Shown here: positions 1 to 33,549 of the stretch, one piece after another
Layout of the letters: each line of letters opens with the position of its first letter
How positions within the stretch are numbered: position 1 is the stretch's first letter
Source of the DNA: a virus
Taxonomy: Duplodnaviria > Heunggongvirae > Uroviricota > Caudoviricetes
Length of the DNA: 33,549 nt
Virus record (IMG/VR): IMGVR_UViG_2778261567_000022
Direction: 5' to 3' (one strand)
The notes under the pieces: model-generated
The model's input: only the letters and a program-made list of their open reading frames with translations
What the model was told of the DNA's origin: nothing
Database searches by the model: none
Program-made: the position numbers and the translations under genes

Positions 1-900
1 GGATTTGACCAGTCTGATAAATCTCGCTTAAGTGCTCTTGCAAAAGAAAATGGTATTGATGTTAAGTCTGATGTTGGAAAAAGTTTGTTTTTCCTTTGTG
101 TAGGAAAGAACAAAGGGTGGCGGAAAGTTCAGAAAGCCAGCGATTATGGCGTAATTATTCTGACAGAAGAACAATTTATCAATTTTATTGATACTGGTGA
201 AATTCCTCTTGAGCAAGACTGCGTGGTTGAGAATGATATCAGTAAATCGCTTGAGAAGGATGTTAACACTTACAAGAGTATGATAGATGAGTTCTCGCTT
301 TCTATCCGTACTGTAAGGGAGTTTCGCCGTAGTAATGCGTTGATTGCGGTATTTGTTGATGGTTACGCAGCTGGTTGGCGCTTTGCTGTAAAAGAGTGTT
401 ACAAGGATTCTTTGGATATAAAACTTACCCCAGTAAAAACAGAGTTTTTTAATTATGAAATTTGGACGCAAGGGGATTCCTTTCAGTTTAATCGCGGTGA
501 TGTTTTTTATAGTGATCGCCTGGCGTATGATTCTTATTGCGATTTTTTAAAGCTTGATGATGCTGTTGTTCTTCAGGTGAAATATGAGTGCTTTTCTGGT
601 TACGATTCTGTAAGTACTTTTGATGGTGTGATGGATGGTGAGTTTTCTTTTTCTCGTATGGAACCCAGACCTGTCCATAAATTACCTGTGCTGATTGAAA
701 CTCAACTGTATGACCCCGGAAAGATTATTGTTGATGTTTTTGTTCCTGATGCTGCGAAAAAACAATTAAAACTTAAAGACACCTTAGAGCTGAAGCAGGA
801 TGAATTTGTCTGTTTACTTCAGTCAGGGTGTTGTTGGGTTAAACGAAGGGAAGCAGGAGATAAGAAAAAACCTGAATTTATTAACCTATTCAAAAAATAA
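1..900 (+). CDS. BRCT-like domain protein, 3' portion only (gene starts upstream of the window)
   Basis: Frame 1 is open from base 1 to TAA at 898-900. Visible segment GIDVKSDVGKSLFFLCVGKNKGWRKVQKASDYGVIILTEEQF fits the second half of a BRCT fold (compare LigA C-terminus). About 200 aa C-terminal region has no motif I recognise. Roughly 37% GC versus the GC-rich prophage. Confidence 0.45.
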   Translation, partial: GFDQSDKSRLSALAKENGIDVKSDVGKSLFFLCVGKNKGWRKVQKASDYGVIILTEEQFINFIDTGEIPLEQDCVVENDISKSLEKDVNTYKSMIDEFSLSIRTVREFRRSNALIAVFVDGYAAGWRFAVKECYKDSLDIKLTPVKTEFFNYEIWTQGDSFQFNRGDVFYSDRLAYDSYCDFLKLDDAVVLQVKYECFSGYDSVSTFDGVMDGEFSFSRMEPRPVHKLPVLIETQLYDPGKIIVDVFVPDAAKKQLKLKDTLELKQDEFVCLLQSGCCWVKRREAGDKKKPEFINLFKK

Positions 901-924: not shown

Positions 925-1316
925 AAATGTCTATGTAATTCAACGGAGAAAGGGTGCCATATCGACCGAACCCGGCAACCGGATAGCGGGGGCTTTCACC
1001 CCCGCTGCGGTTTCTTACGGTTTACACTGCAAGAACGCCGCAAATTCTGACCACATGATGTTAAGTCTGAACTCACACGGAGAACGGTGTATCATCCAGA
1101 CGGTCAACAACATGGTTAAGCATAAAATGCTCACGATGATCGTTTTTTGCGGCATAGCGCTTGACTCCTTTTACAGGGAGGCGCTAACCTTCCACTTGTC
1201 ACGGTAGGAAGTGTTAGGGCCTCGGGTTAACATTTAAGTTGACTCGGGGCCTTTCCACATCCGGCCTTCAGGTAATCCTTCCAGCCATCAGCCGAAAGGC
1301 ACCCGCGTGTAATGTA
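901..1316 (-). repeat. tandem direct repeat unit 1 = hok/sok-like type I toxin-antitoxin locus
   Basis: About 415 bp that realigns to 1623-2036 at high identity (roughly 85-90% by eye); contains an intact Hok-family ORF with GGAG RBS and 3' terminator. Confidence 0.6.
1015..1155 (-). CDS. hok: Hok/Gef-family type I toxin, 46 aa (MPQKTIIVSILCLTMLLTVWMIHRSPCEFRLNIMWSEFAAFLQCKP)
   Basis: Minus-strand ORF missed by the 60-aa ORF track: ATG at 1155, TAA at 1017-1015, AAAAGGAG RBS 9 nt upstream. Single hydrophobic helix then R-x-x-x-C-E-x-R ... AAF-x-x-C-K, the Hok signature; closest in memory to HokA. Confidence 0.65.
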   Translation of the reverse strand: MPQKTIIVSILCLTMLLTVWMIHRSPCEFRLNIMWSEFAAFLQCKP

Positions 1317-1647: not shown

Positions 1648-2036
1648 AAATACGTCTGTAATCCAACGGAGAAAGGGTGCCATATCGACCGAACCCGGCA
1701 ACCGGATAGCGGGGGCTTTCACCCCCGCTGCGGTTTCTTACTGTTTACACTGCAAGAACGCCGCAAATTGTGACCACATGATGTTAAGCCTGAACTCACA
1801 CGGTGACTTGTGTATCATCCAGACAATCATCAAAATAGTTATGCATAAAATGCTCACTATGATCGTTTTTTGCGGCATAGCGCTTGACTCCTTTTACAGG
1901 GAGGCGCTAACCTTCCACTTGCGAGGTAGATGGGTTAGGGCCTCGGGTTAAACAAATGTTTGACTCGGGGCCTTTCCACATCCGGCCTTCAGGTAATCCT
2001 TCCAGCCGTCAGCCGAAAGGCACCCGCGCGTAATTT
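1623..2036 (-). repeat. tandem direct repeat unit 2 = hok/sok-like type I toxin-antitoxin locus
   Basis: Second copy of the roughly 415-bp unit; similarity to copy 1 ends near 2036, where the iteron region begins. Confidence 0.6.
1738..1878 (-). CDS. hok: Hok/Gef-family type I toxin, 46 aa (MPQKTIIVSILCITILMIVWMIHKSPCEFRLNIMWSQFAAFLQCKQ)
   Basis: ATG at 1878, TAA at 1740-1738, same RBS context as copy 1; differs from copy 1 mainly by conservative substitutions in the transmembrane segment. Confidence 0.65.
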   Translation of the reverse strand: MPQKTIIVSILCITILMIVWMIHKSPCEFRLNIMWSQFAAFLQCKQ

Positions 2037-21087: not shown

Positions 21088-21253
21088 CGTGGCCTCTTTT
21101 ACGTGAAAATCTGAAGAACTCCGGTGAGTGTCGGGATTTTTACGGCAGGGGGCTACTGGATTAATTCGGTTGCATTCGGATAACACGGAATAGCCGAACA
21201 CAGCCGAAATTTTCTGCCTGAATGCGGGCCGGATGCGCCGCCATAATGGGCGC
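21088..21253. promoter_or_regulatory. divergent intergenic region between O and P operons (expected Ogr-dependent late promoters)
   Basis: Inference from P2 biology only; no consensus element verified. Confidence 0.3.
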
Positions 21254-23059
21254 ATGGCTAAATATTCTGACGAAATCAAAGAGGCGGCGCGATCGCTTTA
21301 CCTGAAGCGGTGGCACCCCCGCGATATTGCGGCGGAACTCGGTATTCCGCCGCGCACGGTTTACCACTGGTGTGATGTGGGGCAGTGGGCTACCCTGCTG
21401 CCCGCTGAATCCGTTGAGGACGTGATCGCCCGGCGTATTGATGTGCTGACCGGACGGGAGGGCAAGACAGAGTGTGAACTTGCCGAACTGCGTGAACTTA
21501 TCGCGCAGCACGTGAAGATCATCGCCCAGAAAAACAAACACGCTGAAAGGATGGCGGAAATTGCCGCCCTGCGTCCGGCAGGGCATGAGGACGGCGTGGC
21601 TGCGGGGACCTGCGGCGGGGGAGAAGGGAAAAAGCGGCGCTACCGGAAAAACGACGTTTCCGGACTGACTGCTGAAATGCTGGATGAATGGGCGCGTAAA
21701 AATCTTTATGCCTACCAGCTGCACTGCCGCGAGAACCGGCACCGTGAGCGCCGTTTCATCCTCAAGAGCCGCCAGATCGGCATGACCTGGTATTTTGCAT
21801 GGGAGGCGTTCGAAGATGCGGTGGTGACCGGTGATAACCAGATTTTCTTTTCTGCGTCACGGGTACAGGCGGAAATCTTCCGTGAATATATTATTAACTT
21901 CGCCCTGCAGTTCGGGATCACGCTCACGGGTAAGCATATCCGTCTGAGCAATGGTGCAATGCTGCGTTTCCTGTCCACCAATGCCAGTACCGCCCAGGGA
22001 TTTAACGGCCACCTTTACGGCGATGAGGTGTTCTGGATCCCAAAATTCACGCGACTGCATGAAGTGGCCTCGGCAATGGCGACCCACGACAAATACCGCA
22101 CGACGTATTTTTCCACACCCAGCGCCAAAACCCACCAGGCTTATCTGGTCTGGAATGGTGACGACTGGCGCGGGGATGACCCGGCGCGTCGTGCTGTTGA
22201 GTTTCCGAAAGAAAGCGCGATGCGTGTGGGCTGTGAATGCCCTGACGGGATCTGGCGCTACATTATCCGGCTGGAAGAGGCGGTGGCGGGTGGCCTGTCT
22301 GCTCGGGTTGATATTGAACGTATCAGGAACCGCTACAATCCGACCACTTACGCGATGCTGTACGGCTGCGAGTTTGTTGACAGCAAGGATGCGGTATTTA
22401 AGTTCTCCGAACTGGTCAGGTGCGAGGTGGAGATGGAGACGTGGGGTGACTACGATCCCACGGCGGCACGTCCGTTCGGCAATCGTGAGGTGTGGGCGGG
22501 CTTTGACCCGTCAAGGTCCGGGGATAATTCCACGTTTGTAATTGTGGCTCCGCCTGTCCATGAGGGCGAGCGGTTCCGTGTGCTCGCCGTCTGGCAGTGG
22601 CAGGGATTTAACTTCACCTGGCAGGCCGATCAGATCCGCGAACTGATGCAGCGTTTTAACATTACCTATATCGGCATAGATATCACCGGTATCGGGAAAG
22701 GGGTGTTTGATATCGTCAGTCGCTTTGCGCCACGTGAGGCTAACGCCATTCTTTACAGCGTGGAGAGCAAAAACCGCCTGGTGATGAAAATGATAGACGT
22801 GGTGGCCCATAAGCGTATCGAGTGGGCGAAAGACGCCATTGATGAGGCCAGCCGTGAACGCACGGAGATCCCCGCGTCGTTCATGTCCATACGCCGCACC
22901 ACCACAAAAAGCGGTAACGCGCTGACGTTCGTGGCGGAACGGTCGGATGTTACGGGGCATGCGGATGTGTTTTTTGCCATTTCGCACGCCGTGATTAATG
23001 AGCCTGTAGATTATGACTATGAACGCCCGTCCACATGGGCCTTCGGGAAAGCCGCATGA
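21254..23059 (+). CDS. P: terminase large (ATPase) subunit (P2 gpP-like)
   Basis: 601 aa from ATG 21254 (MAKYSDEIKEAARSLY...); divergent from O-N-M-L and directly upstream of the portal gene, as P2 P-Q. Confidence 0.75.
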   Translation: MAKYSDEIKEAARSLYLKRWHPRDIAAELGIPPRTVYHWCDVGQWATLLPAESVEDVIARRIDVLTGREGKTECELAELRELIAQHVKIIAQKNKHAERMAEIAALRPAGHEDGVAAGTCGGGEGKKRRYRKNDVSGLTAEMLDEWARKNLYAYQLHCRENRHRERRFILKSRQIGMTWYFAWEAFEDAVVTGDNQIFFSASRVQAEIFREYIINFALQFGITLTGKHIRLSNGAMLRFLSTNASTAQGFNGHLYGDEVFWIPKFTRLHEVASAMATHDKYRTTYFSTPSAKTHQAYLVWNGDDWRGDDPARRAVEFPKESAMRVGCECPDGIWRYIIRLEEAVAGGLSARVDIERIRNRYNPTTYAMLYGCEFVDSKDAVFKFSELVRCEVEMETWGDYDPTAARPFGNREVWAGFDPSRSGDNSTFVIVAPPVHEGERFRVLAVWQWQGFNFTWQADQIRELMQRFNITYIGIDITGIGKGVFDIVSRFAPREANAILYSVESKNRLVMKMIDVVAHKRIEWAKDAIDEASRERTEIPASFMSIRRTTTKSGNALTFVAERSDVTGHADVFFAISHAVINEPVDYDYERPSTWAFGKAA

Positions 23060-24108
23060 GCAAGAAACGCAGAAACAAAACGTCACGCGTGACGAAAAAA
23101 TCATTCACGCCCGCACGTGGCAGCACAATCACCTTTGGCCAGCCGGAACCGGTGCTGACCACCGGCACGGACTACCATAACATCTGGTATGACAACGAAC
23201 ACAACCACTGGCAGCTGCCGATTAACCGCCTGGCACTGGCGCAGCTCCCGAACCTTAACGCCCAGCACGGTGGGGTGCTGTATGCCCGCCGTAACATGGT
23301 GGCGGGGGGTTATACCGGTGGTGGTCTCACAACGGACCAGATGGAACAGGCGGTATTTGACTACCTGTTATTCGGCGATCTCGCCCTGCTCAAGGTGCGT
23401 AACGTATTCGGCGACGTCGTGGCTCTTGAGCCGCTTCCGTCGCTGTATCTCCGGCGCCGCAAAACCGGTGAGTTCGTGGTGCTTCAGGAAGGCCCCGCGC
23501 TGGTCTATACGCCGGAAGATATTATCTTTCTGCGGATGTATGATCCGCGTCAGCAAATTTACGGGCTGCCGGATTATATCGGTGGCATCCACTCGGCGCT
23601 GCTGAACAGCGAGGCCAGCCTTTTTCGTCGCCGTTACTACAACAACGGGGCGCATATGGGTTTTTTGCTGTATACGAACGACCCTGGGATCACCACGGAG
23701 ATGGAGGATGAGATCCGCGAGAAGGTGGCGGAGTCTAAGGGGCTGGGAAATTTCCGCAATCTGTACATCAACATCCCCAAAGGTTCGCCGGATGGGGTGA
23801 AAATTATTCCGATTGGTGAGGTGAGCGCCAAGGATGAATTTTCAAACATCAAGGGGATCAGCGCCCAGGATGTGTTTACGGCACACCGCTTTCCTGCCGG
23901 TCTTGCGGGGATTATCCCCACGAACGGGGCCACCATCCCTAACCCGGAAACGACGCGTGAAACGTACCGCAAGGATGAGGTGATACCGCTTCAGCGTAAA
24001 ATCATGAACGCCGTGAACAGCGATCCCGATATACCGGAACACCTTTATCTTTGTTTTGATGTGGATGCCGGGCATGTGGCGGAAGAAAAAGCGGTGCCGG
24101 TCGGGTAA
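23056..24108 (+). CDS. Q: portal protein (P2 gpQ-like)
   Basis: 350 aa from ATG 23056 (MSKKRRNKTSR...), start overlapping the stop of P (ATGA); size as P2 gpQ. Confidence 0.75.
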   Translation: MSKKRRNKTSRVTKKSFTPARGSTITFGQPEPVLTTGTDYHNIWYDNEHNHWQLPINRLALAQLPNLNAQHGGVLYARRNMVAGGYTGGGLTTDQMEQAVFDYLLFGDLALLKVRNVFGDVVALEPLPSLYLRRRKTGEFVVLQEGPALVYTPEDIIFLRMYDPRQQIYGLPDYIGGIHSALLNSEASLFRRRYYNNGAHMGFLLYTNDPGITTEMEDEIREKVAESKGLGNFRNLYINIPKGSPDGVKIIPIGEVSAKDEFSNIKGISAQDVFTAHRFPAGLAGIIPTNGATIPNPETTRETYRKDEVIPLQRKIMNAVNSDPDIPEHLYLCFDVDAGHVAEEKAVPVG

Positions 24109-24145: not shown

Positions 24146-24409
24146 ATGCGGATTTTTAAAGCCCGGTGTCCGGACTGTGGCGCACCTGCTGTCATCCGGA
24201 AGACAGACTGGAAAACCCCTGAACTTGCGGATCTGTACTGTGCATGCAGTGATGTCGAATGCGGGCACACCTTCGTCTGTACGATGACCTTTTCCCATAC
24301 CCTCAGCCCCGGCGCCCGCTCCGGTCGCAATATGGTGAAGTTTCTTGTTGATGCCATGCGCCCGGAAGATCGCCGGTATGCGCTTGAACTTCTGTCGCGG
24401 CGTTCCTGA
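24146..24409 (+). CDS. ogr: Ogr/Delta-family zinc-finger late transcription activator, 87 aa
   Basis: ATG 24146 with GGGAGG RBS; Cys spacing C-x2-C-x22-C-x4-C (CPDC ... CSDVEC) matches P2 Ogr / P4 Delta. Confidence 0.7.
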   Translation: MRIFKARCPDCGAPAVIRKTDWKTPELADLYCACSDVECGHTFVCTMTFSHTLSPGARSGRNMVKFLVDAMRPEDRRYALELLSRRS

Positions 24410-24436
24410 CGCGCTTCGCTTGTCTGCTGCTTCGCC

Positions 24437-24459
24437 GGGGCAAAAAGAATTTTTGCCCC
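24437..24459. terminator. bidirectional rho-independent terminator between convergent ogr and early-operon ends
   Basis: Perfect inverted repeat GGGGCAAAAA-GAA-TTTTTGCCCC: GC-rich stem base with A/T runs that give a U-tail on both strands. Confidence 0.6.
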
Positions 24460-24474
24460 GACTCACCAGCTCCT

Positions 24475-24801
24475 TTAACGGAATGCAGCGCCGTAGATAA
24501 ACAGAATTCGCTTCATGATTTCGCTGCGCTTGCAGGCTTCGATGACTGATTTTTCCTGCTGCCGTTCAGCCCGTTGCGCCAGTTCCTGTCGTTCCTTTTC
24601 CGTTGGCTTCCGGTAATGCGTTATCTTGTCCGTGTACCCGTCCACAACCAGCAACCCTTCCCGTACCATTTTTCCGGCGGCCTGATTAATGACGGTTCTT
24701 TTCACGCCCAGTTTTTCTACCAGTTCTGGGGCGCTGAAACGTGTGTGCGTTTCCAGGTAGCGTAAAATGATTTCCTTTCCGGTCATTCCTGGGGTCTTCA
24801 T
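24475..24801 (-). CDS. winged-helix DNA-binding protein, 108 aa
   Basis: Start at ATG 24801 with AAGGAG RBS (MKTPGMTGKEIILRYLETHTRFSAPELVEKLGVKRTVINQAAGKMVREGLLVVDG...); helix-turn-helix pattern; last gene before the terminator. Confidence 0.5.
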   Translation of the reverse strand: MKTPGMTGKEIILRYLETHTRFSAPELVEKLGVKRTVINQAAGKMVREGLLVVDGYTDKITHYRKPTEKERQELAQRAERQQEKSVIEACKRSEIMKRILFIYGAAFR

Positions 24802-24968
24802 TTGGCGGCTCCTTCGTTGTTCCGGCGTTCCCGGAGTTCGGTCAGTGCTGCCAGTAAATTCTCCCACCATGTTTCTTCCACGACCGGGTTTTGTCGTGAA
24901 AGCAGCTGCTGCGCCGACTCAATCATTTTCGTAAGCTCTCTGTCGCTGATCCTCCTGGTGCTGTTCAT
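24798..24968 (-). CDS. hypothetical small protein, 56 aa
   Basis: ATG 24968 with AAGGAG RBS; stop abuts the start of the downstream wHTH gene. Confidence 0.4.
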   Translation of the reverse strand: MNSTRRISDRELTKMIESAQQLLSRQNPVVEETWWENLLAALTELRERRNNEGAAK

Positions 24969-25016
24969 GGTGCGCTCCTTTAGTTGGCTGTTTCTGGTTA
25001 TGTTCATGGTCTTTGT

Positions 25017-25421
25017 TTACCTGCGTGATTGTCTGCCAGCGGCTGAATGCACATAGCGGGCAATTGCCGCTTTGCGGTTAATCGATGCCAGTGTTCTGGT
25101 CAGTTCTGCGTTGTGTTTGTGTGCCTGCTCTTCGTGGTACTGCCGCATGATTTTTCCGGCAGGCGTGAGCGGCTCCGGCTCTCCGGGCGGACGGCGCGGA
25201 CGAACGGCGACAAGCCAGCTGCGGTTGGTGCTGTCCGGTCGTCCGTTGAGTATGTCGGTGATGATGGCCGTGGTGGTGCGATCGGGACTGACGACCGTGA
25301 TTTCCAGCTCATCGCCCGGTTGTGGCCCCGTGGCAATGTTGTTCAGGGTCAGTAAGGGCGTGCGCTGGCGCATCATTTCGTCAAAACGCTGGCGCTGCAT
25401 GGCGCAATAAAAGCGGGTCAT
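25017..25421 (-). CDS. hypothetical protein, 134 aa, translationally coupled to gpA
   Basis: Start codon overlaps the gpA stop; no recognisable motif. Confidence 0.4.
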   Translation of the reverse strand: MTRFYCAMQRQRFDEMMRQRTPLLTLNNIATGPQPGDELEITVVSPDRTTTAIITDILNGRPDSTNRSWLVAVRPRRPPGEPEPLTPAGKIMRQYHEEQAHKHNAELTRTLASINRKAAIARYVHSAAGRQSRR

Positions 25422-27937
25422 TGTGGCGCCTCCGTATTCGGTGCGGGGGTGATATCAATGCGGCGGGTGCTGTCATTCCAGTACGCGGTGCGTCCGTCAG
25501 CCAGGCGCACGCGGGCACCGTGACGGACGGAAACGACGGCGCTTTCATGCAGTTGTACGCCCAGCGCATCAAGCTCGCGGGTGATTTGTGCGGTGATGTG
25601 TGGCTCAGCGGTCAGAGCGACACTCACGCGAACGCCGCCAGCGGGCGCACTGATGCCGCCGTTTTTCACGGTTTCCGTGTCAGGTGGCGGGTTTTTCAGC
25701 TGCCTGGTGAGTTGTTTTCGCTCTGTGGGTGTCAGTGACCTTAACCATTCACCCAAATCACCTTCCGGCAGGGTAAGTCGCTGCTCCCTGCGTCCGTCCG
25801 GCTGCCTTTCTGGCGGGGCGTTTATGGTCAGATTCTGGTCAGGGGGACAGTTATTGCCACGAGTCCAAGGTGCGGCAAAGCCGCACTCAACGTCAAAACC
25901 CTCGTCCGTGCGGTCTTCGTTTTCCGGCTTACGTCTGACCAGTTTCCAGGTGTCCGGGTGGGTGCATATGGTGTAGCGCTCCCCGAGTGACGGGGCGCGG
26001 ACGCCGTAAATGCGTTGCGGGAATTCGCCGTAGTCGTTGGCCTCTTCGGCAGTTTCGTATGCGGTGCGGACCAGGTACGTGTTGCGGGGAATGAGCACAC
26101 CACCCTGGCGGGTGATATAGGTGGCAAAACATCCCACGTCGGCGGCGGCCAGTATGGCGTCAATGTCGTCATGGTCCAGACGCTGCGGGGCAGCCGGGTT
26201 ACGGGCCATTTGCCCGGCAAGACGGCGGAGTTCGCGCCATACCTGGCGGGGAGGGATACCGAAGAACTGGAACTGGTGGATGCGGTGAAGGCCTGCCCAG
26301 CCGATGGCGTTCTCCACGGTTTCGGCCATGGTTTTGCCTGATTCCTTATCGACGTAAGGTTTGCCGGTTTTCGGGTCATTCCCCATGAAGGTGCTGGCGT
26401 CCAGGTTCTTACCGATATAGGTCGCGATATAGCTTGTCGGTGTGCCTTTTGCCGGGTCGATTTTTTTGCATTTAAAACGCGGGGAGATATCATCACCCAG
26501 CTCTGCGCGGTCCTCCCTGATGGCGGCGTTGCGCATGATTTCAGTGATACGGGCTTCGTTTTCCTGGCTGGTGAATACCAGCATGTGCCAGTGCGGTGTA
26601 CCGTCGTGGTGGGGCTCCACGGTGCGCACGCCGTACCAGCCCAGCCCGGCCTTGTCGATGGCCCTGCGGACGGCGGCGAAAAAGCGGTAAACCAGATAAT
26701 CACTGGCATCGCGTACCGTTGCTCCGCAGTATTTCGGGTTCAGGCTGCCGTCATCGTTCACGCTGTGAAAACGGGAAGGGGCTGTGACGGTGACGAAAAA
26801 CGCCACGTCGCCGCGTGCTTCGGCGACCTGCTCCATTCCCCGGGCGCAGGTCATCATCTCGTTACGGCGGTTACGCGGATTAGAGAGACCTGCCCAGTAG
26901 ATATCCTCAAGGCTGAACCGTTCTCCCTCTTCGTTCTCGATGTCCCAGGCCTTCAGAAAATCGCGGGTGCGCTGGCGTTTTTCGCGCCAGTCCAGTAACG
27001 CTTCATGGCTGATATATACCGATGTCTTACGTGACACCAGACCTGCGGCGCGTAACAGTTCTTCACGCCAGATGTCCCGGAGGTGTCTTAACTGACTGTT
27101 CCACCATGTCGCACAGGAAAGGCGCATGACCGCACCCGGCACCCGTTCCGGGTCGGGGTCGGTGCGGCGGTCGGGCCTGATTTCCAGCGACGGCCAGCAG
27201 GGTGGCGTGATACCCAGTTTTAACGCCATGTGTGCCAGTGGCTGGTAGGTCAGTAACCAGGTGAGCAGGTCATCGTCACCCCTGCCGGTCTTTTCGATGA
27301 CTTCATCACATGCGCGCTCCAGTGCGGTGGAAAACGCGGTGGCGGTCAGGGTGGCAAGGCGCTGGATTTCGTCACGGCTCAGCTGTGGCAGCATAAGCAG
27401 TTCATCCAGCCGTTCGCGCGCGGCGGTGGCCTTAAAGGCCGGGGTGGCAAAGCGTTCATTCACACGGGCGATACGTTTCAGGCGGGCACGCAGCCCGTGA
27501 CGAACGAAGTTATCCGCCGCATATGCGCTGTTATTCTTAAGCCCTTCCCGGCGTGCGCTCTCCTGTTTGCGGCTCAGGCGCGCCAGGTCACGGATGAGCG
27601 GACCGGCAAGAAACGGCGGCAGGGCGCGCAGCTCTGCCATGGCTTCAGATACCAGTGTTGGCGGATTCTCGTGTTTGTGCCGCGCCAGTTTTTCCAGCCT
27701 GATCCGACGCTCTTCGTCGTGGTAAAGATGCGAATTAATTCGCTTCCCTTCGTCTGTGGTTGTCAGGAAGGCGACGGTTTCTTCATCCAGTCTGGCGTCA
27801 GTGCGAATATCCTCGTTGATGTAGCTCTGAATGGCCTGGCGTAATGCGGTTGGCTGCGCTCTGCCGAACGTTTCAGGATCGATAACCGGTAGCGGGGCGT
27901 TCCACGGGTACGCCAGTTGTGCATTATGGTCGCTCAT
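25418..27937 (-). CDS. A: replication initiation protein, rolling-circle HUH endonuclease (P2 gpA-like)
   Basis: HUH motif (HHDGTPHWHMLVF) and tyrosine pair (SYIATYIGK) as in P2 A / phiX174 A superfamily; start set at ATG 27937, which overlaps the upstream stop. Confidence 0.8.
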   Translation of the reverse strand: MSDHNAQLAYPWNAPLPVIDPETFGRAQPTALRQAIQSYINEDIRTDARLDEETVAFLTTTDEGKRINSHLYHDEERRIRLEKLARHKHENPPTLVSEAMAELRALPPFLAGPLIRDLARLSRKQESARREGLKNNSAYAADNFVRHGLRARLKRIARVNERFATPAFKATAARERLDELLMLPQLSRDEIQRLATLTATAFSTALERACDEVIEKTGRGDDDLLTWLLTYQPLAHMALKLGITPPCWPSLEIRPDRRTDPDPERVPGAVMRLSCATWWNSQLRHLRDIWREELLRAAGLVSRKTSVYISHEALLDWREKRQRTRDFLKAWDIENEEGERFSLEDIYWAGLSNPRNRRNEMMTCARGMEQVAEARGDVAFFVTVTAPSRFHSVNDDGSLNPKYCGATVRDASDYLVYRFFAAVRRAIDKAGLGWYGVRTVEPHHDGTPHWHMLVFTSQENEARITEIMRNAAIREDRAELGDDISPRFKCKKIDPAKGTPTSYIATYIGKNLDASTFMGNDPKTGKPYVDKESGKTMAETVENAIGWAGLHRIHQFQFFGIPPRQVWRELRRLAGQMARNPAAPQRLDHDDIDAILAAADVGCFATYITRQGGVLIPRNTYLVRTAYETAEEANDYGEFPQRIYGVRAPSLGERYTICTHPDTWKLVRRKPENEDRTDEGFDVECGFAAPWTRGNNCPPDQNLTINAPPERQPDGRREQRLTLPEGDLGEWLRSLTPTERKQLTRQLKNPPPDTETVKNGGISAPAGGVRVSVALTAEPHITAQITRELDALGVQLHESAVVSVRHGARVRLADGRTAYWNDSTRRIDITPAPNTEAPQ

Positions 27938-28344
27938 GCGTCGCACTCCCCGGCAGTCGCCGCCTGAAACGCCGCGCGGTACAGCACGAGAAGGCGCTGG
28001 TATTCACCGATAAAGTCTTCTGCGGTGTATATACCTTTCACGGCCACGCTGTGGTTTGTCATTTCCAGAACAAGCGTCATCTCTGACGACGACCAACTGA
28101 TGGCGGTGCTGTCGGTTCCGTTGATGTGAAATAAACCAAAACCATCACCTTTCACGTCCACGCGGTAACGGTCGTCAACGGTGAAGGAGAAATCCCCGTA
28201 TGTGGTGACGTGTCTGGCGGCCTGTTTACAGGCGCGGCGGTAATAGTCGTGCCAGTCGTTCAGGCGGGAAGCCAGCCGGGGATCCACTGCCCACATCCAG
28301 TTAAAAAAATCCTGAATATCTGAAAGTCCCTTAACGCTCTTCAT
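27934..28344 (-). CDS. hypothetical early protein, 136 aa
   Basis: ATG 28344 with GGAGG RBS; coupled to gpA start; occupies the position of P2 B/orf82-83 but no recognised similarity. Confidence 0.45.
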   Translation of the reverse strand: MKSVKGLSDIQDFFNWMWAVDPRLASRLNDWHDYYRRACKQAARHVTTYGDFSFTVDDRYRVDVKGDGFGLFHINGTDSTAISWSSSEMTLVLEMTNHSVAVKGIYTAEDFIGEYQRLLVLYRAAFQAATAGECDA

Positions 28345-28412: not shown

Positions 28413-28640
28413 TTAGTGGTGGTGTTGCTGGTTGATAAGGTCCTGCAGTTCTGCCAGGTCTTCGGCCAGATAGCTGAAGACTGCCGCGTAATACCCGGCA
28501 GCGATACCATCGTTAAGTCGATGTAATGCGTTTGACTGCATGATGAAGGTGACAGATGCAGCCCGATGGAGTCTGCGGTTAATTTCAGTGCGGATGTGAA
28601 GACGCTCAGCGCGGGCGCGCTGTTGTTTGCGGTTTGCCAT
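28413..28640 (-). CDS. hypothetical early protein, 75 aa
   Basis: ATG 28640 with AAGAGG RBS; basic N-terminus (MANRKQQRARAERLHIRTEINRRL), acidic C-terminus ending HHH. Confidence 0.4.
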   Translation of the reverse strand: MANRKQQRARAERLHIRTEINRRLHRAASVTFIMQSNALHRLNDGIAAGYYAAVFSYLAEDLAELQDLINQQHHH

Positions 28641-28960
28641 GGTGTTTGGCCTCTTGTAGTAAGTTCTGAAAACTCACCAACCCGAGGCGGTAATCTCAGG
28701 GTGGCGAGACGTACAGGGTTACCACAACCGGCTACAAGAGATCCCGGCCCGACCGAAGTCGGCCCCGTACGCCCCGCCATAATTCTGACGCGAAAAAGAC
28801 GTGGCGATACAGTACGCACAAAAAAACCGCTGGCGCGGTTGTGCGCTCTTGTAGTCGGCGGGGTGGTAATCCCGGCACCCGTTTTATGAGGTGCGGGAAA
28901 ACTGTAACCCGACCAGGCGAACGCTGGCAAGCGGTTTTTTTGTGTGTGCATGATGATCAC
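28641..28960. ncRNA. structured non-coding region inside the early operon (candidate small RNA or RNA regulatory element)
   Basis: About 320 bp without a credible ORF in a tightly packed operon; inverted repeat CTCTTGTAG ... CTACAAGAG (28644-28733); hairpins around 28816-28847 and 28921-28932, the latter followed by TTTTTTT on plus; CTCTTGTAGT occurs twice. Confidence 0.3.
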
Positions 28961-30488: not shown

Positions 30489-30727
30489 GCTGCATTCCCA
30501 AGTGCGTATGGCTCAATATGTACTCCGCATTCTGCATCACGAACAAGCTCAGACAGCTCATTGAGAGCATCCAGATCGTCAGCGTAAAAAGCTGCATCAT
30601 ACAGGCTGCGAATTGCTCTGGTCAGTGAGTCTCTTGCTGCATGTTCTGCGGCAACTCCTGACATACTCAGGCGAAAGTTAAAGCGCTCAAGGGCTTTATT
30701 GATGAGAACCTTATATTCTTTGTCCAT
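30485..30727 (-). CDS. hypothetical early protein, 80 aa
   Basis: ORF in lower-GC part of the early operon. Confidence 0.35.
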   Translation of the reverse strand: MDKEYKVLINKALERFNFRLSMSGVAAEHAARDSLTRAIRSLYDAAFYADDLDALNELSELVRDAECGVHIEPYALGNAA

Positions 30728-30747
30728 TGTATTTCCCCGGAAAACAA

Positions 30748-31002
30748 TTAAACAAAATCGCTTAATGATTTACCTGATTCAATCTTCTCTATCGTGTCTT
30801 CAATAGCCATGTATGCGGCGTAATCGCCTGCGAGGTCGGCGCATTTCTGTAGCCCCTGTAATGCGCTGATGATATCTTTTTTTGTTTCCCATAAAGGTTT
30901 TGCTGTATTTAGTGCATTACGGGCATTATTAGCTATGAGCCGGTGTATGATAATTGTGTAGGCTGATGCTATCTCTGCCATGTCTTTTGTCGTTGTTGCC
31001 AT
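30748..31002 (-). CDS. hypothetical early protein, 84 aa
   Basis: ORF in lower-GC part of the early operon. Confidence 0.35.
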   Translation of the reverse strand: MATTTKDMAEIASAYTIIIHRLIANNARNALNTAKPLWETKKDIISALQGLQKCADLAGDYAAYMAIEDTIEKIESGKSLSDFV

Positions 31003-31005
31003 GTA

Positions 31006-31341
31006 TTAATTCCCCCATGGATGCTGAAAACTGCGACCGCTGATTAATCGGTCTGCCGTTCTTAATGCTTCGTGCAGGGTGAAATCCTGCCCGAACTGCT
31101 CATCTCCGCGAGTCAGGGAGTAACAGGTATTCCCGGTAATCGGGTTGCGTGCGCCCCGGTGAATGACAATTCCGGCATCATTAATCAGCCAGGTGTGTTT
31201 ACCGGTTTGTTTAACCGGATGCCCGTCAGGTGTGGCGTGCGTTTCCTGCAGGCTGTAGTGCGTGTTGCTGCGTGATGCACTGGTTGAGAAACGGGCTGCG
31301 TGGCGTTCTGTGCCAGTGCGGAAGTTGCGTCGCTGTGTCAT
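31006..31341 (-). CDS. hypothetical early protein, 111 aa
   Basis: ORF in the early operon. Confidence 0.35.
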   Translation of the reverse strand: MTQRRNFRTGTERHAARFSTSASRSNTHYSLQETHATPDGHPVKQTGKHTWLINDAGIVIHRGARNPITGNTCYSLTRGDEQFGQDFTLHEALRTADRLISGRSFQHPWGN

Positions 31342-31393
31342 ATCGGAAAAACCCGCTTAAGTTAAAAGAATTGAAATAACGGTGTATTGGTAT

Positions 31394-31624
31394 TTATGCC
31401 CAGTTGTCTTTTCTTATTACTGTTTCATTCTGAAATCCTGTCTGCTCCATTGCATTTTTTAAGGACTCTTCTGTTTCAAATGTCACAACGATGCAATGGG
31501 TCGGGTAATGGAAATACAAATCGTTGCCAGCCCGAACAATGGCATCTAAGTTCTGATTACAGATTATTACTGAAGCGTCGTCGCTTATTTTTATTCTTTG
31601 TCTGATTTCCGTGTGTTTAATCAT
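31394..31624 (-). CDS. hypothetical early protein, 76 aa
   Basis: First ORF after the cox-like gene. Confidence 0.35.
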   Translation of the reverse strand: MIKHTEIRQRIKISDDASVIICNQNLDAIVRAGNDLYFHYPTHCIVVTFETEESLKNAMEQTGFQNETVIRKDNWA

Positions 31625-31654
31625 CTTGCCCCTCCAATGATTGCCAGTTCTATA

Positions 31655-32080
31655 TCACGCAGCTTTATTACTGATGCGTTTATTCCGTGAACCAGCTGCT
31701 GGCTTAAATAAAAAAAGTCGGTTTTCCCATTCGTGCCATTCTTGCGGTGCGTTTTCAGTGAGTCGATCGCAGGCTTCATCCCACGCTTTCCGGTTGATGT
31801 AGAGTTCGGCGTTTCCGCCAGGCTTGAGAGGGTCCGCCATGTACACAGCGGGTAATTTCCCTGCTTTTGCCATGCTCACGATGGCGTCAACGGTCTTGCC
31901 GATATACATCGCAAACCCTTCTTTTGACAGGAGATGAGAAGGGTTTTGTGAAAGCCGGATTTCCTGGCGTTCAGGGGCTTTGCGGCCGGTCTTCAGGTGT
32001 GCGGTTTCTGGCGCATCTGTCAACTGATCGCACTGTGTTTCGGCAGGCGATTCAGGCGCGTTTTGAGTGACTTCTTGCAT
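31655..32080 (-). CDS. cox: Cox-like excisionase / early-promoter regulator, 141 aa
   Basis: Divergent from C with about 107-bp intergenic region; start at ATG 32080 with GGAGGA RBS; central segment MYIGKTVDAIVSMAKAGKLPAVYMADP resembles P2 Cox (IGKSTGAVRRMIDKGKLPVIDMTDP); longer than P2 Cox. Confidence 0.55.
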   Translation of the reverse strand: MQEVTQNAPESPAETQCDQLTDAPETAHLKTGRKAPERQEIRLSQNPSHLLSKEGFAMYIGKTVDAIVSMAKAGKLPAVYMADPLKPGGNAELYINRKAWDEACDRLTENAPQEWHEWENRLFLFKPAAGSRNKRISNKAA

Positions 32081-32187
32081 CTGGTATCCTCCGTTATTGG
32101 CCCCTTTTTCGAATAGGGACCATGTAGAACCAATTGCGACTATTCTTGTGTTGCTATACACAAAAATTATTGGAGATTAGAAAAATT
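32081..32187. promoter_or_regulatory. immunity switch region: divergent early (Pe) and repressor (Pc) promoters/operators
   Basis: Position between divergent cox-like and C genes, as in P2; individual elements not verified. Confidence 0.45.
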
Positions 32188-32487
32188 ATGTCAATACCGC
32201 AAAATGAGAAATTAAAACTTATCAGAGAGTCCGAACGGATGAAAATGAAGGAACTATCTGATTTAATTGGAATTAATTACTATACATATCATGGCTATGA
32301 AAGTGGGAAATCTAAGATGCCTCTTGATTTTGGGATCCTTCTTTTGCGGCACGCTCGTTTCCGTAAATACCGTGACTGGTTTTTGTTCGATGAGGTCGAA
32401 CCAAAGGCCGGGCAGGTGGTACCGGCTCTCGCACACATTGGGCAAAGCGAAGCGGAATCATCCCACTCCGGCAAGAAGACTGGTTAA
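32188..32487 (+). CDS. C: immunity repressor (P2 C-type), 99 aa
   Basis: ATG 32188; same length as P2 C and strong C-terminal match (GQVVPALAHIGQSEAESSHSGKKTG versus recalled P2 GQIAPALAHFGQNETTSPHSGQKTG). Confidence 0.8.
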   Translation: MSIPQNEKLKLIRESERMKMKELSDLIGINYYTYHGYESGKSKMPLDFGILLLRHARFRKYRDWFLFDEVEPKAGQVVPALAHIGQSEAESSHSGKKTG

Positions 32488-32553
32488 CGGTCCATCTGGC
32501 CTTTATTTCTCAAAATTGTGATCAAGATGATGTTTTCATTGGGGGGCTTCCTT

Positions 32554-33549
32554 ATGTCGATTAAGAAGCTCGCTGATGGCAAATACTGTGTGGACGTGCG
32601 GCCTGCTGGATCTGAAGGAAGAAGATTTCGGCGGCGATTTCCTACCCGTGGTGAAGCGGCGATGTATGAACGCCATGTTCTGACGCATTATCACGATAAG
32701 GACTGGGTCGAAAAACCTATTGAACGTAAAGCGTTAAGCGATCTTCTGGAACTGTGGTGGGTGTACCACGGTAAGAATCATCGTTATGGCGCGATGAATC
32801 GGGTCAGAATTGAAGCGGTTCTTCGTGATATGCAAGAGCTTGGTATTAACAGAAGTGACCACTTAACCCGAAAAAATATTATCAGATATCGCCTTGAATT
32901 AATGAATCGCGGAATTAAGCAGTCAACGGTAAATCGTTATTGTGCAATGATGAGTGGTTTCTTTGAAAAGCTGATTGATGTTGAAGAGTTTGTGGGTGAT
33001 AACCCGTTTCACGAGATACGCAAGCTAACAATTAATCAGCCGGAAATGGCTTATCTTGCACATGATGATATTCCCAGGCTAACCGCACTTTTATCTGGCG
33101 ATAATCTTAAGGCTGTATTGTTAAGCCTGGCTACAGGCGGGCGCTGGGGTGAAGTTGCCAATATTAAAGGTGAACACATAATTGGTGGGAAGGTTATTTT
33201 CATGGAGACAAAGAATGGATCGCGGCGGGTTATTCCTATAGCTAAAGATCTTGAATCTCTGATTAAAGTCAAAGCGACTGGAAGATTAATGAACCCCAGT
33301 TATGCGATAGTCAGAAGTGCAATAAGGACTGTGCGGCCTGATTTACCAGTCGGTCAGTCTGTGCATGTTTTACGGCACACATTCGCAACTCATTTCATGA
33401 TAAATGGAGGGAACATTATTACCCTTCAGCGTATTTTAGGGCACAGCACAATTCAGCAAACAATGACCTATGCGCACTTTGCACCTGATTATCTCCAGGA
33501 CGCGGTAAGGTTCAATCCGGTTGCGGAGTTGTCCAGATTTTGCCCATAA
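32554..33549 (+). CDS. int: tyrosine integrase (P2 Int-like)
   Basis: ATG 32554 (MSIKKLADGKYCVDVRPAG...) and C-terminal catalytic region HVLRHTFATHFMINGGNIITLQRILGHSTIQQTMTYAHF closely matching recalled P2 Int; stop TAA is the last three bases of the window. Confidence 0.9.
   Translation: MSIKKLADGKYCVDVRPAGSEGRRFRRRFPTRGEAAMYERHVLTHYHDKDWVEKPIERKALSDLLELWWVYHGKNHRYGAMNRVRIEAVLRDMQELGINRSDHLTRKNIIRYRLELMNRGIKQSTVNRYCAMMSGFFEKLIDVEEFVGDNPFHEIRKLTINQPEMAYLAHDDIPRLTALLSGDNLKAVLLSLATGGRWGEVANIKGEHIIGGKVIFMETKNGSRRVIPIAKDLESLIKVKATGRLMNPSYAIVRSAIRTVRPDLPVGQSVHVLRHTFATHFMINGGNIITLQRILGHSTIQQTMTYAHFAPDYLQDAVRFNPVAELSRFCP

What the first reader, a model, noticed from the sequence alone, without database searches (positions are those of the whole stretch)
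24475..25421. Three-gene accessory cluster downstream of gpA, at the position of the P2 old/tin defence hotspot
In P2 the interval between the replication gene and the portal/cos side carries variable anti-phage cargo (old, tin). Here it holds three small coupled genes (134 aa, 56 aa, and a 108-aa winged-helix protein, the last two with strong AAGGAG sites) closed by a perfect bidirectional terminator. None matches a family I recognise, so this could be a compact toxin-antitoxin, defence or anti-defence module.
Basis: inference. Interest (0 to 1): 0.5.

Follow-up and report, generated by a model that had tools for sequence, protein, structure and literature searches.

The report
Replication-operon tail with a lambda Ren homologue
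The three small genes after the replication gene of this E. coli P2-like prophage are real, but they look like the end of the phage's own replication operon, including a homologue of phage lambda's Ren protein, and not like a new defence or toxin-antitoxin module.

Summary
The three ORFs exist as described, all on the minus strand: 134 aa (25017-25421), 56 aa (24798-24968) and 108 aa (24475-24801). All are under purifying selection (dN/dS 0.09-0.45).

They are not one unknown module.
- **Gene 3** is a full-length homologue of lambda Ren (42% identity, E 3e-27; PHROG 142, 9e-29). Ren is the small protein co-translated with lambda O and P, and lambda needs it to grow on Rex+ lysogens.
- **Gene 1** overlaps the gpA stop (ATGA). 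It follows gpA in every relative I examined. Its predicted N-domain has an ASCH/DUF3850-like fold, like P2 Orf91, which sits at the same position in P2. It is lineage core, not cargo.
- **Gene 2** is an orphan found only in E. coli. It is kept even where Ren has been swapped out.

No PADLOC hit and no promoter-like site were found. All three genes point the same way as gpA, unlike P2 old/tin. They are therefore probably expressed with the replication genes during lytic growth.

The "terminator" is a perfect 11-bp hairpin without a U-tract. It lies inside a 74-nt element found just after the portal gene in 1111 of 5426 complete E. coli genomes.

Verdict: a new member of known kinds, of modest interest. 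The mildly novel point is a Ren homologue attached to a rolling-circle (gpA) replication module.

The parts
25418..27946 (-). gpA replication endonuclease (842 aa). This is context: the gene whose operon the three ORFs extend.
   Evidence: Pfam Phage_GPA 3.5e-105. RefSeq calls it 'replication endonuclease'.
25017..25421 (-). orf134. Its start overlaps the gpA stop (ATGA). It has a predicted ASCH/DUF3850-like beta-barrel (about residues 1-75) and a long basic C-terminal helix (87-133). It is lineage core and the positional counterpart of P2 Orf91.
24798..24968 (-). orf56, a small helical orphan protein with an AAGGAG ribosome-binding site. A longer 69-aa ORF back to 25007 has no Shine-Dalgarno sequence. 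It is retained, with an altered C-terminus, in relatives that lack Ren.
   Evidence: PHROG 14672, 3.3e-32. It occurs in 38 genomes at 47 places. Homologues are found only in E. coli. The L002 and L003 variants keep it without Ren. dN/dS is 0.10-0.42.
24475..24801 (-). Lambda Ren homologue (108 aa). It has a winged-helix core and C-terminal helices. Its start overlaps the orf56 stop (ATGA), and it has an AAGGAG ribosome-binding site.
24436..24460 (.). Perfect hairpin (11-bp stem, 3-nt loop) between the convergent Ren-like and ogr genes. There is no U-tract after the stem on either strand.
   Evidence: Fold energies are -25.8 and -33.7 kcal/mol, with z-scores of -3.9 and -4.1. P88 carries a compensatory A:T to T:A change in the stem. 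The terminator scan did not report it.
24404..24477 (.). 74-nt conserved element that forms the distal flank of the hotspot. It contains the hairpin, the ogr stop codon and the Ren-like stop codon.
   Evidence: It is present at 90-95% identity in 1111/5426 complete E. coli genomes. It directly follows the portal gene stop in most rows shown; the other rows have no annotated feature under the match. It is also in P88/Xuanwuvirus phages.
24146..24409 (+). ogr/Delta zinc-finger late activator, convergent with the trio. It lies between the portal gene and the conserved element.
   Evidence: Pfam Ogr_Delta 1.3e-15.
23035..24108 (+). Portal protein (gpQ-like). It marks the far boundary of the gpA-gpQ interval.
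   Evidence: Pfam Phage_portal 1.7e-14. RefSeq annotates it as a phage portal protein.

Best explanation
The interval is the promoter-distal end of the phage's early (replication) operon. It is not a self-contained defence or toxin-antitoxin module.

- **orf134** is translationally coupled to gpA. It is a lineage-core accessory protein with a predicted ASCH/DUF3850-like domain and a basic helix, and it is the counterpart of P2 Orf91.
- **orf56 and gene 3** form an optional, translationally coupled extension of the operon.
- **Gene 3** is a homologue of lambda Ren, a roughly 100-aa winged-helix protein made together with the replication proteins.

My inferred mechanism is that Ren acts at the replicating phage DNA or replication complex during lytic growth. 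There it would keep replication from being aborted by replication-sensing exclusion systems of resident prophages, of which RexAB is the lambda paradigm.

Shown here: the homology, the gene coupling, the conservation pattern and the lack of defence signatures. Inferred: the timing of expression and the Ren-like protective function.
For: - **Ren homology.** BLASTP gives 42% identity over the whole length, E 3e-27. PHROG 142 'Ren-like' scores 9.4e-29. The C-terminal C..S..M.R.L..G positions are invariant in the alignment that includes lambda Ren.
- **Same operon position in both phage types.** In lambdoid phages ren directly follows the replication gene P. This holds in the rows shown of 156 phage records and in 74 of 75 lambdoid IMG/VR loci. 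Lambda P and ren also overlap by 4 nt. Here the homologue is likewise the last gene after the replication gene.
- **Literature on lambda Ren.** O, P and ren are co-translated. ren- phage grows poorly on Rex+ lysogens, with suppressors in O and P. Ren interacts with RexA and RexB in two-hybrid assays (supplement of 10.1101/2021.04.19.439022).
- **orf134 is core.** It occurs in 67 genomes, against 59 genomes for the gpA clade at 80% identity or more. It abuts gpA in the rows shown.
- **No independent expression signal.** All three genes are co-oriented with gpA, and no sigma-70-like site was found on that strand between 24000 and 28600. P2 old and tin, by contrast, are on the opposite strand with their own transcript starts.
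- **No defence signature.** No convincing PADLOC match: none for orf134 or orf56, and only weak winged-helix-type hits for gene 3 (best E 1.9e-4).
Against: - Lambda-type rexAB is rare: 99/5426 genomes, all at least 99% identical and largely K-12 lambda lysogens in the rows shown. An anti-Rex role alone is therefore a weak selective explanation.
- Ren's molecular mechanism is unknown even in lambda.
- This phage replicates through a gpA rolling-circle nickase, not through O/P, so lambda genetics may not transfer.
- The promoter scan is crude, so expression from the prophage cannot be excluded.
- The genes lie in an interval known to be rich in defence systems, and orf56/Ren are present in only about half of the lineage.
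- The ASCH-like assignment rests on a model of moderate confidence (N-domain pLDDT 54-73). There is no sequence-level support.
Confidence: 0.55

Rival explanations
1. Pure replication or regulatory accessory with no link to defence. The Ren-like winged-helix protein, perhaps with orf56 and orf134, binds phage DNA or gpA to tune rolling-circle replication or early-to-late timing. One example would be acting near the convergent ogr gene.
For: - The protein has a winged-helix DNA-binding fold.
- Ren is tied to replication modules in both phage types.
- The authors of the lambda work suspect a replication role.
- Lambda-type rexAB is rare in nature, yet Ren is widespread.
- The gpA 3' end and the orf134 N-domain diverge together.
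Against: - In lambda, Rex sensitivity is the only ren phenotype described in the sources read here, and ren did not contribute to the P-lethality or replicative-killing phenotypes tested.
- About half of the gpA lineage does without orf56 and Ren.
- No DNA target is known.
Confidence: 0.25
2. A prophage-encoded anti-phage defence system, as is typical of the gpA-gpQ hotspot. It would be expressed in the lysogen and block superinfecting phages.
For: - The location is in the published hotspot.
- orf56 and Ren are variably present and are replaced by other cargo in near-identical prophages.
- The Ren-like protein appears as 'hypothetical' in the hotspot catalogue of PMC9122126.
Against: - No convincing PADLOC match: none for orf134 or orf56, and only weak winged-helix-type hits for gene 3.
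- No enzymatic or effector domain is present.
- The genes are co-oriented and translationally coupled with the repressed early operon, and no promoter-like site was found.
- Gene 3 is homologous to a protein that relieves exclusion, not one that causes it.
- Gene 1 is lineage core.
Confidence: 0.08
3. orf56 and the winged-helix protein form a type II toxin-antitoxin pair, with a DNA-binding antitoxin and a small toxin or the reverse.
For: - The two small genes overlap by 4 nt, and one of them is an HTH protein.
- A TumE TA pair lies in the same interval in a relative.
Against: - The partners occur apart. orf56 occurs without Ren in L002 and L003. Ren occurs without any orf56 homologue in lambdoid phages.
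- No toxin or antitoxin family matches.
- No promoter of its own was detected.
- In the plasmid work read here, the lethality of lambda P-ren constructs was due to P, not Ren.
Confidence: 0.05

Closest known systems
Phage lambda Ren (PHROG 142, 'Ren-like exclusion protein')
   Same: - Gene 3 is 42% identical to lambda Ren over the full length.
- Both are about 100 aa, with a winged-helix core and a conserved C-terminal motif.
- Both are the last gene of the replication operon.
- Both overlap the upstream gene by 4 nt.
   Different: - Here the upstream genes are gpA, orf134 and orf56, a rolling-circle module, not the O/P initiator and helicase loader.
- The P2-like copies form a separate clade at 84-98% identity to each other and only 40-43% to lambdoid Ren. 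No intermediates were among the 80 best IMG/VR loci kept.
- The Rex-related phenotype is untested.
P2 Orf91 (DUF3850/ASCH), the gene that follows P2 A
   Same: - It has the same position and the same 4-nt overlap with the replication gene.
- The predicted fold of the orf134 N-domain best matches 3iuw, the structure that Orf91 matches by sequence.
   Different: - No sequence similarity is detectable (hhalign; Pfam).
- orf134 carries an extra 47-residue basic helix.
- The family is tiny: 3 clusters among 1.84 billion representatives.
P2 old/tin and other cargo of the gpA-gpQ defence hotspot (Rousset et al. 2022)
   Same: It occupies the same interval between the replication gene and the portal gene, with variable content among close relatives.
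   Different: - old and tin are on the opposite strand with their own promoter, and they encode recognisable effectors.
- Here the genes continue the early operon, have no effector domain and have no convincing PADLOC hit.
MarR-family transcriptional regulators (the RefSeq label for gene 3)
   Same: Both share the winged helix-turn-helix fold.
   Different: - The Pfam MarR_2 score of 24.6 bits is below the 27-bit cut-off.
- At 108 aa, the protein lacks the flanking dimerisation helices of MarR proteins.

Membership tests
Lambda Ren family | Full-length sequence similarity to lambda Ren | tested here: met
   BLASTP gives 42% identity, E 3e-27, residues 6-104 against 1-93. PHROG 142 scores 9.4e-29.
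Lambda Ren family | Last gene of the phage replication operon, translationally coupled to the gene upstream | tested here: met
   There is an ATGA overlap with orf56. The gene is co-oriented with gpA and is followed by the hairpin and the convergent ogr gene. Lambda P and ren overlap in the same way.
Lambda Ren family | Association with an O/P-type initiator and helicase-loader module (Weigel & Seitz, as cited) | tested here: not met
   The replication gene here is gpA (Phage_GPA). No lambda O or P homologue occurs in the P2-like Ren loci.
Lambda Ren family | Confers resistance to Rex exclusion and interacts with RexA/RexB | not testable with these tools
   This needs plating of a deletion mutant on Rex+ lysogens and two-hybrid assays.
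MarR family | Pfam MarR/MarR_2 score above the gathering threshold | tested here: not met
   The score is 24.6 bits against a cut-off of 27.
ASCH / DUF3850 (P2 Orf91-like) | Sequence match to Pfam ASCH or DUF3850 | tested here: not met
   There was no hit for orf134 or any of 30 homologues. hhalign against Orf91 gave probability 0.2.
ASCH / DUF3850 (P2 Orf91-like) | ASCH-type beta-barrel fold | tested here: inconclusive
ASCH / DUF3850 (P2 Orf91-like) | Gene immediately after gpA and overlapping its stop codon | tested here: met
Anti-phage defence system of the P2 gpA-gpQ hotspot | Located between gpA and gpQ and variably present among close relatives | tested here: inconclusive
   The location criterion is met. 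Variability holds for orf56 and Ren (33-38 genomes) but not for orf134 (67 genomes, against 59 for the gpA clade).
Anti-phage defence system of the P2 gpA-gpQ hotspot | Match to a known or candidate defence family | tested here: not met
   PADLOC gave nothing for orf134 or orf56. Gene 3 gave only weak winged-helix hits (best E 1.9e-4).
Anti-phage defence system of the P2 gpA-gpQ hotspot | Expressed from the prophage (own promoter) | tested here: inconclusive
   No promoter-like site was found on the minus strand between 24000 and 28600, but the scan is simple. Transcript data are needed.
Type II toxin-antitoxin pair | The two partners always co-occur | tested here: not met
   orf56 occurs without Ren in L002 and L003. 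Lambdoid phages carry Ren but no orf56 homologue.
Intrinsic (rho-independent) terminator | G+C-rich hairpin followed directly by a U-tract | tested here: not met
   The hairpin is present and stable. No U-run follows the stem on either strand, and the scan did not report it.

The most novel reading that the evidence does not exclude
orf56-Ren is a portable counter-defence cassette that a rolling-circle (gpA) P2-like phage lineage acquired from the lambdoid gene pool. It would shield replication intermediates from replication-sensing abortive-infection systems, Rex-like or other. As far as I could find, this would be the first Ren described outside O/P replication modules. Ren's 45-year-old unknown mechanism could then be tested independently of lambda O and P. 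It would also add an anti-defence gene class to the P2 hotspot, where current tools find almost none (PMC13586616).
Probability: 0.25. Interest if true: 0.55.

Novelty: new member of a known kind. Interest (0 to 1): 0.25.

Why it matters
- **Annotation.** The RefSeq label 'MarR family regulator' rests on a sub-threshold match. The catalogue label 'hypothetical' can be replaced: the gene is a Ren homologue.
- **Hotspot boundaries.** Not everything between gpA and the portal gene is swappable cargo. The gene directly after gpA belongs to the replication module, and the real swap zone starts further down.
- **Ren biology.** Finding Ren on a phage with a completely different replication system argues that Ren's role is not specific to lambda O/P. 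It also offers a second, simpler system in which to find out what Ren does.

Tried and rejected
- PADLOC, Pfam and NCBIfam scans of orf134 and orf56 found nothing meaningful.
- tblastn of orf134 and orf56 against 50,697 phage records found no match.
- Sequence searches of the three proteins against the PDB found nothing useful.
- An HMM search of 1.84 billion representatives with the orf134 profile found only 3 true clusters, so no distant relatives were available to annotate.
- hhalign of orf134 against P2 Orf91 showed no similarity.
- I tested whether orf56 is a remnant of the lambda P C-terminus carried along with ren. BLASTP gave no alignment, so I rejected the idea.
- I tested whether the small genes after orf134 in other relatives (L007, L008) are diverged orf56. 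They are not.
- I considered whether the hairpin or the 74-nt element is the cos site. The P2 cos 19-mer is absent from the window with up to 3 mismatches, and I could not locate cos. This is left open.
- Rfam on the region gave only a sub-threshold chance hit.
- The afdb50 fold library was not available.
- Lambda Ren could not be added to the structure-prediction alignment.
- The key paper on ren (Thomason & Court 2022, PMC9529316) is not held.
- I could not test co-occurrence of the Ren-like gene with rexAB in the same genomes. Only the overall rarity of lambda-type rexAB was obtained.

Full report
**What is there**

The window is a P2-like prophage of E. coli. A 99.6% identical copy lies between serS and dmsA in strain 2013C-3033. 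Pfam confirms gpA at 25418-27946 (-) (Phage_GPA, 3.5e-105). It also confirms the portal gene at 23035-24108 (+) and the large terminase at 21233-23059 (+).

Three ORFs lie between gpA and the portal gene on the minus strand:
- orf134, 25017-25421
- orf56, 24798-24968
- a 108-aa ORF, 24475-24801

An ogr/Delta gene lies on the plus strand at 24146-24409 (Pfam 1.3e-15).

The gpA stop and the orf134 start overlap as ATGA. The orf56 stop and the gene-3 start overlap the same way. A 48-nt gap separates orf134 from orf56. Both orf56 and gene 3 have AAGGAG 7 nt before the ATG. RefSeq annotates the same three CDSs. Against homologues from other prophages, all three show dN/dS between 0.09 and 0.45.

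**Gene 3 is a lambda Ren homologue**

- PHROGs gives family 142, 'Ren-like exclusion protein', at 9.4e-29.
- BLASTP against lambda Ren (taken from NC_001416) gives 42% identity from end to end, E 3e-27.
- tblastn against 50,697 phage records finds 156 records, all below 60% identity. In the rows shown the gene lies next to the lambda-type replication genes, P in most.
- In the IMG/VR viral contig collection, the 80 best loci split cleanly. Five are P2-like (84-98% identical, with gpA, orf134 and orf56 upstream). Seventy-five are lambdoid (40-43% identical), and 74 of these have lambda P upstream.
- The RefSeq name 'MarR family' rests on a Pfam score of 24.6 bits, below the 27-bit cut-off.

The supplement of 10.1101/2021.04.19.439022 summarises what is known about Ren. 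[quoted passage not shown] Ren interacts with RexA and RexB in two-hybrid assays. Its mechanism is unknown.

**Gene 1 belongs with gpA**

Homologues of orf134 occur in 67 of 5426 complete E. coli genomes and abut the replication endonuclease gene in the rows shown. The gpA clade at 80% identity or more comprises 59 genomes. The two therefore go together. The family is tiny and restricted to E. coli.

P2 Orf91 sits directly after P2 A with the same 4-nt overlap. It is a DUF3850/ASCH protein (Pfam 1.1e-16) and matches 3iuw_A by sequence at 5e-11. No sequence similarity between orf134 and Orf91 is detectable. I therefore call orf134 the positional and probable structural counterpart of Orf91, not a proven homologue.

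**Gene 2 and the real variable zone**

orf56 occurs in 38 genomes and Ren in 33. Prophages that are nearly identical through gpA and orf134 (L002, L003) keep orf56 with a changed C-terminus. They replace Ren with a 54-aa hydrophobic protein plus a 187-aa or 72-aa protein.

Other relatives show other arrangements:
- the trio plus an SSB and a membrane protein (L004)
- the trio plus a TumE toxin-antitoxin pair, an HVO_A0114 protein and one more gene (L009)
- unrelated small genes after orf134 (L007 and L008)

The swappable zone therefore begins at or after orf56, not at gpA.

The distal flank of the zone is a 74-nt element (24404-24477). It is present at 90-95% identity in 1111 of 5426 genomes and follows the portal stop codon directly in most rows shown. 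The Ren-like gene's last codons change exactly where this element begins.

**The hairpin**

The hairpin at 24436-24460 is a perfect 11-bp stem with a 3-nt loop. It is very stable (z about -4) and carries a compensatory change in phage P88. No U-tract follows the stem on either strand, and the terminator scan did not list it. It may still stop transcription, but it is not a canonical intrinsic terminator, and it is part of a larger conserved element.

**How it most likely works**

P2 old and tin lie on the strand opposite to A and have their own mapped transcript starts. That arrangement fits genes expressed from the prophage. Here all three genes continue the gpA reading direction with translational coupling, and no promoter-like site was found on that strand between 24000 and 28600. 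In P2-like phages the early operon is repressed in the lysogen (established knowledge of P2 C and Pe). These genes are therefore most likely made together with the replication proteins during lytic growth. This step is an inference.

With the Ren homology, this points to a phage-serving function at the replication stage. My best guess is that the Ren-like protein protects replication from replication-sensing exclusion, as lambda Ren does against Rex.

Against a narrow anti-Rex reading, lambda-type rexAB is found in only 99 of 5426 genomes. These are all nearly identical and, in the rows shown, largely K-12 lambda lysogens. A broader or purely replication-related role is therefore a serious rival.

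Defence and toxin-antitoxin readings lack support:
- No convincing PADLOC match and no toxin/antitoxin family match.
- orf56 and Ren each occur without the other.

**Comparison with the literature, and novelty**

The gpA-gpQ interval is a published hotspot (PMC9122126). A close homologue of the Ren-like protein (WP_001537149) appears in that paper's Table S5 as 'hypothetical'. A 2026 survey found almost no anti-defence genes in P2-like prophages with current tools (PMC13586616). I found no paper describing a Ren homologue in a P2-like phage, but the literature search is limited.

Overall this is a new member of known kinds. The useful points are a corrected annotation, a sharper boundary for the hotspot, and a Ren homologue on a rolling-circle replication module.

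Noticed in passing
window 24404-24477: A 74-nt non-coding element containing the hairpin is 90-95% identical in 1111 of 5426 complete E. coli genomes. It follows the portal stop codon directly in most rows shown. Here ogr sits between the portal gene and the element, and the ogr stop codon lies inside the element. Its function (Q-operon terminator, recombination flank or part of cos) is unknown.
   Followed up: partly
window 25200-25750: There is a mosaic pattern against relatives (L004, L015-L018). The last ~300 nt of gpA plus the orf134 N-domain are only 61-68% identical. The flanking parts of gpA are 78-100% identical, and the orf134 C-helix, orf56 and Ren are 86-95% identical. The gpA C-terminus and the orf134 N-domain may therefore co-vary as a specificity pair.
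   Followed up: partly
window 28697-28784 (-) and 28820-28894 (-): Rfam finds a C4 antisense RNA (80 bits) and an isrK Hfq-binding sRNA (65 bits). They lie next to a 'derepression protein' ORF at 28413-28640 (Pfam Derepression, 2.7e-6), upstream of gpA. This looks like a P1/P4-style RNA-controlled antirepressor module in a P2-like phage.
   Followed up: no
window 1015-1155 (-) and 1738-1878 (-): Two 46-aa ORFs with Hok/Gef-type sequences sit in duplicated ~400-nt units at the tail-fibre/att end of the prophage. RefSeq annotates Hok/Gef family proteins in the near-identical region. Rfam found no hok/sok RNA at gathering score.
   Followed up: partly
window 24146-24409 (+): The ogr/Delta late activator lies inside the gpA-gpQ interval next to the portal gene. 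Relatives L004, L008 and L009 have no ogr at this position, so its placement is itself variable.
   Followed up: no
window 24475-24490: The Ren-like protein ends ...GAAFR here but ...GAGEELPVI(ANQ) in most homologues. DNA similarity stops at nucleotide 316 of 327. The recombination junction with the conserved 74-nt flank therefore lies inside the last codons of the gene.
   Followed up: partly
window 1-898 and 30494-33549: The window matches the 2013C-3033 prophage at 98.7% between 899 and 30493 only. The two ends differ from that strain: sequence next to the Hok region, and the immunity, cox and integrase side.
   Followed up: no
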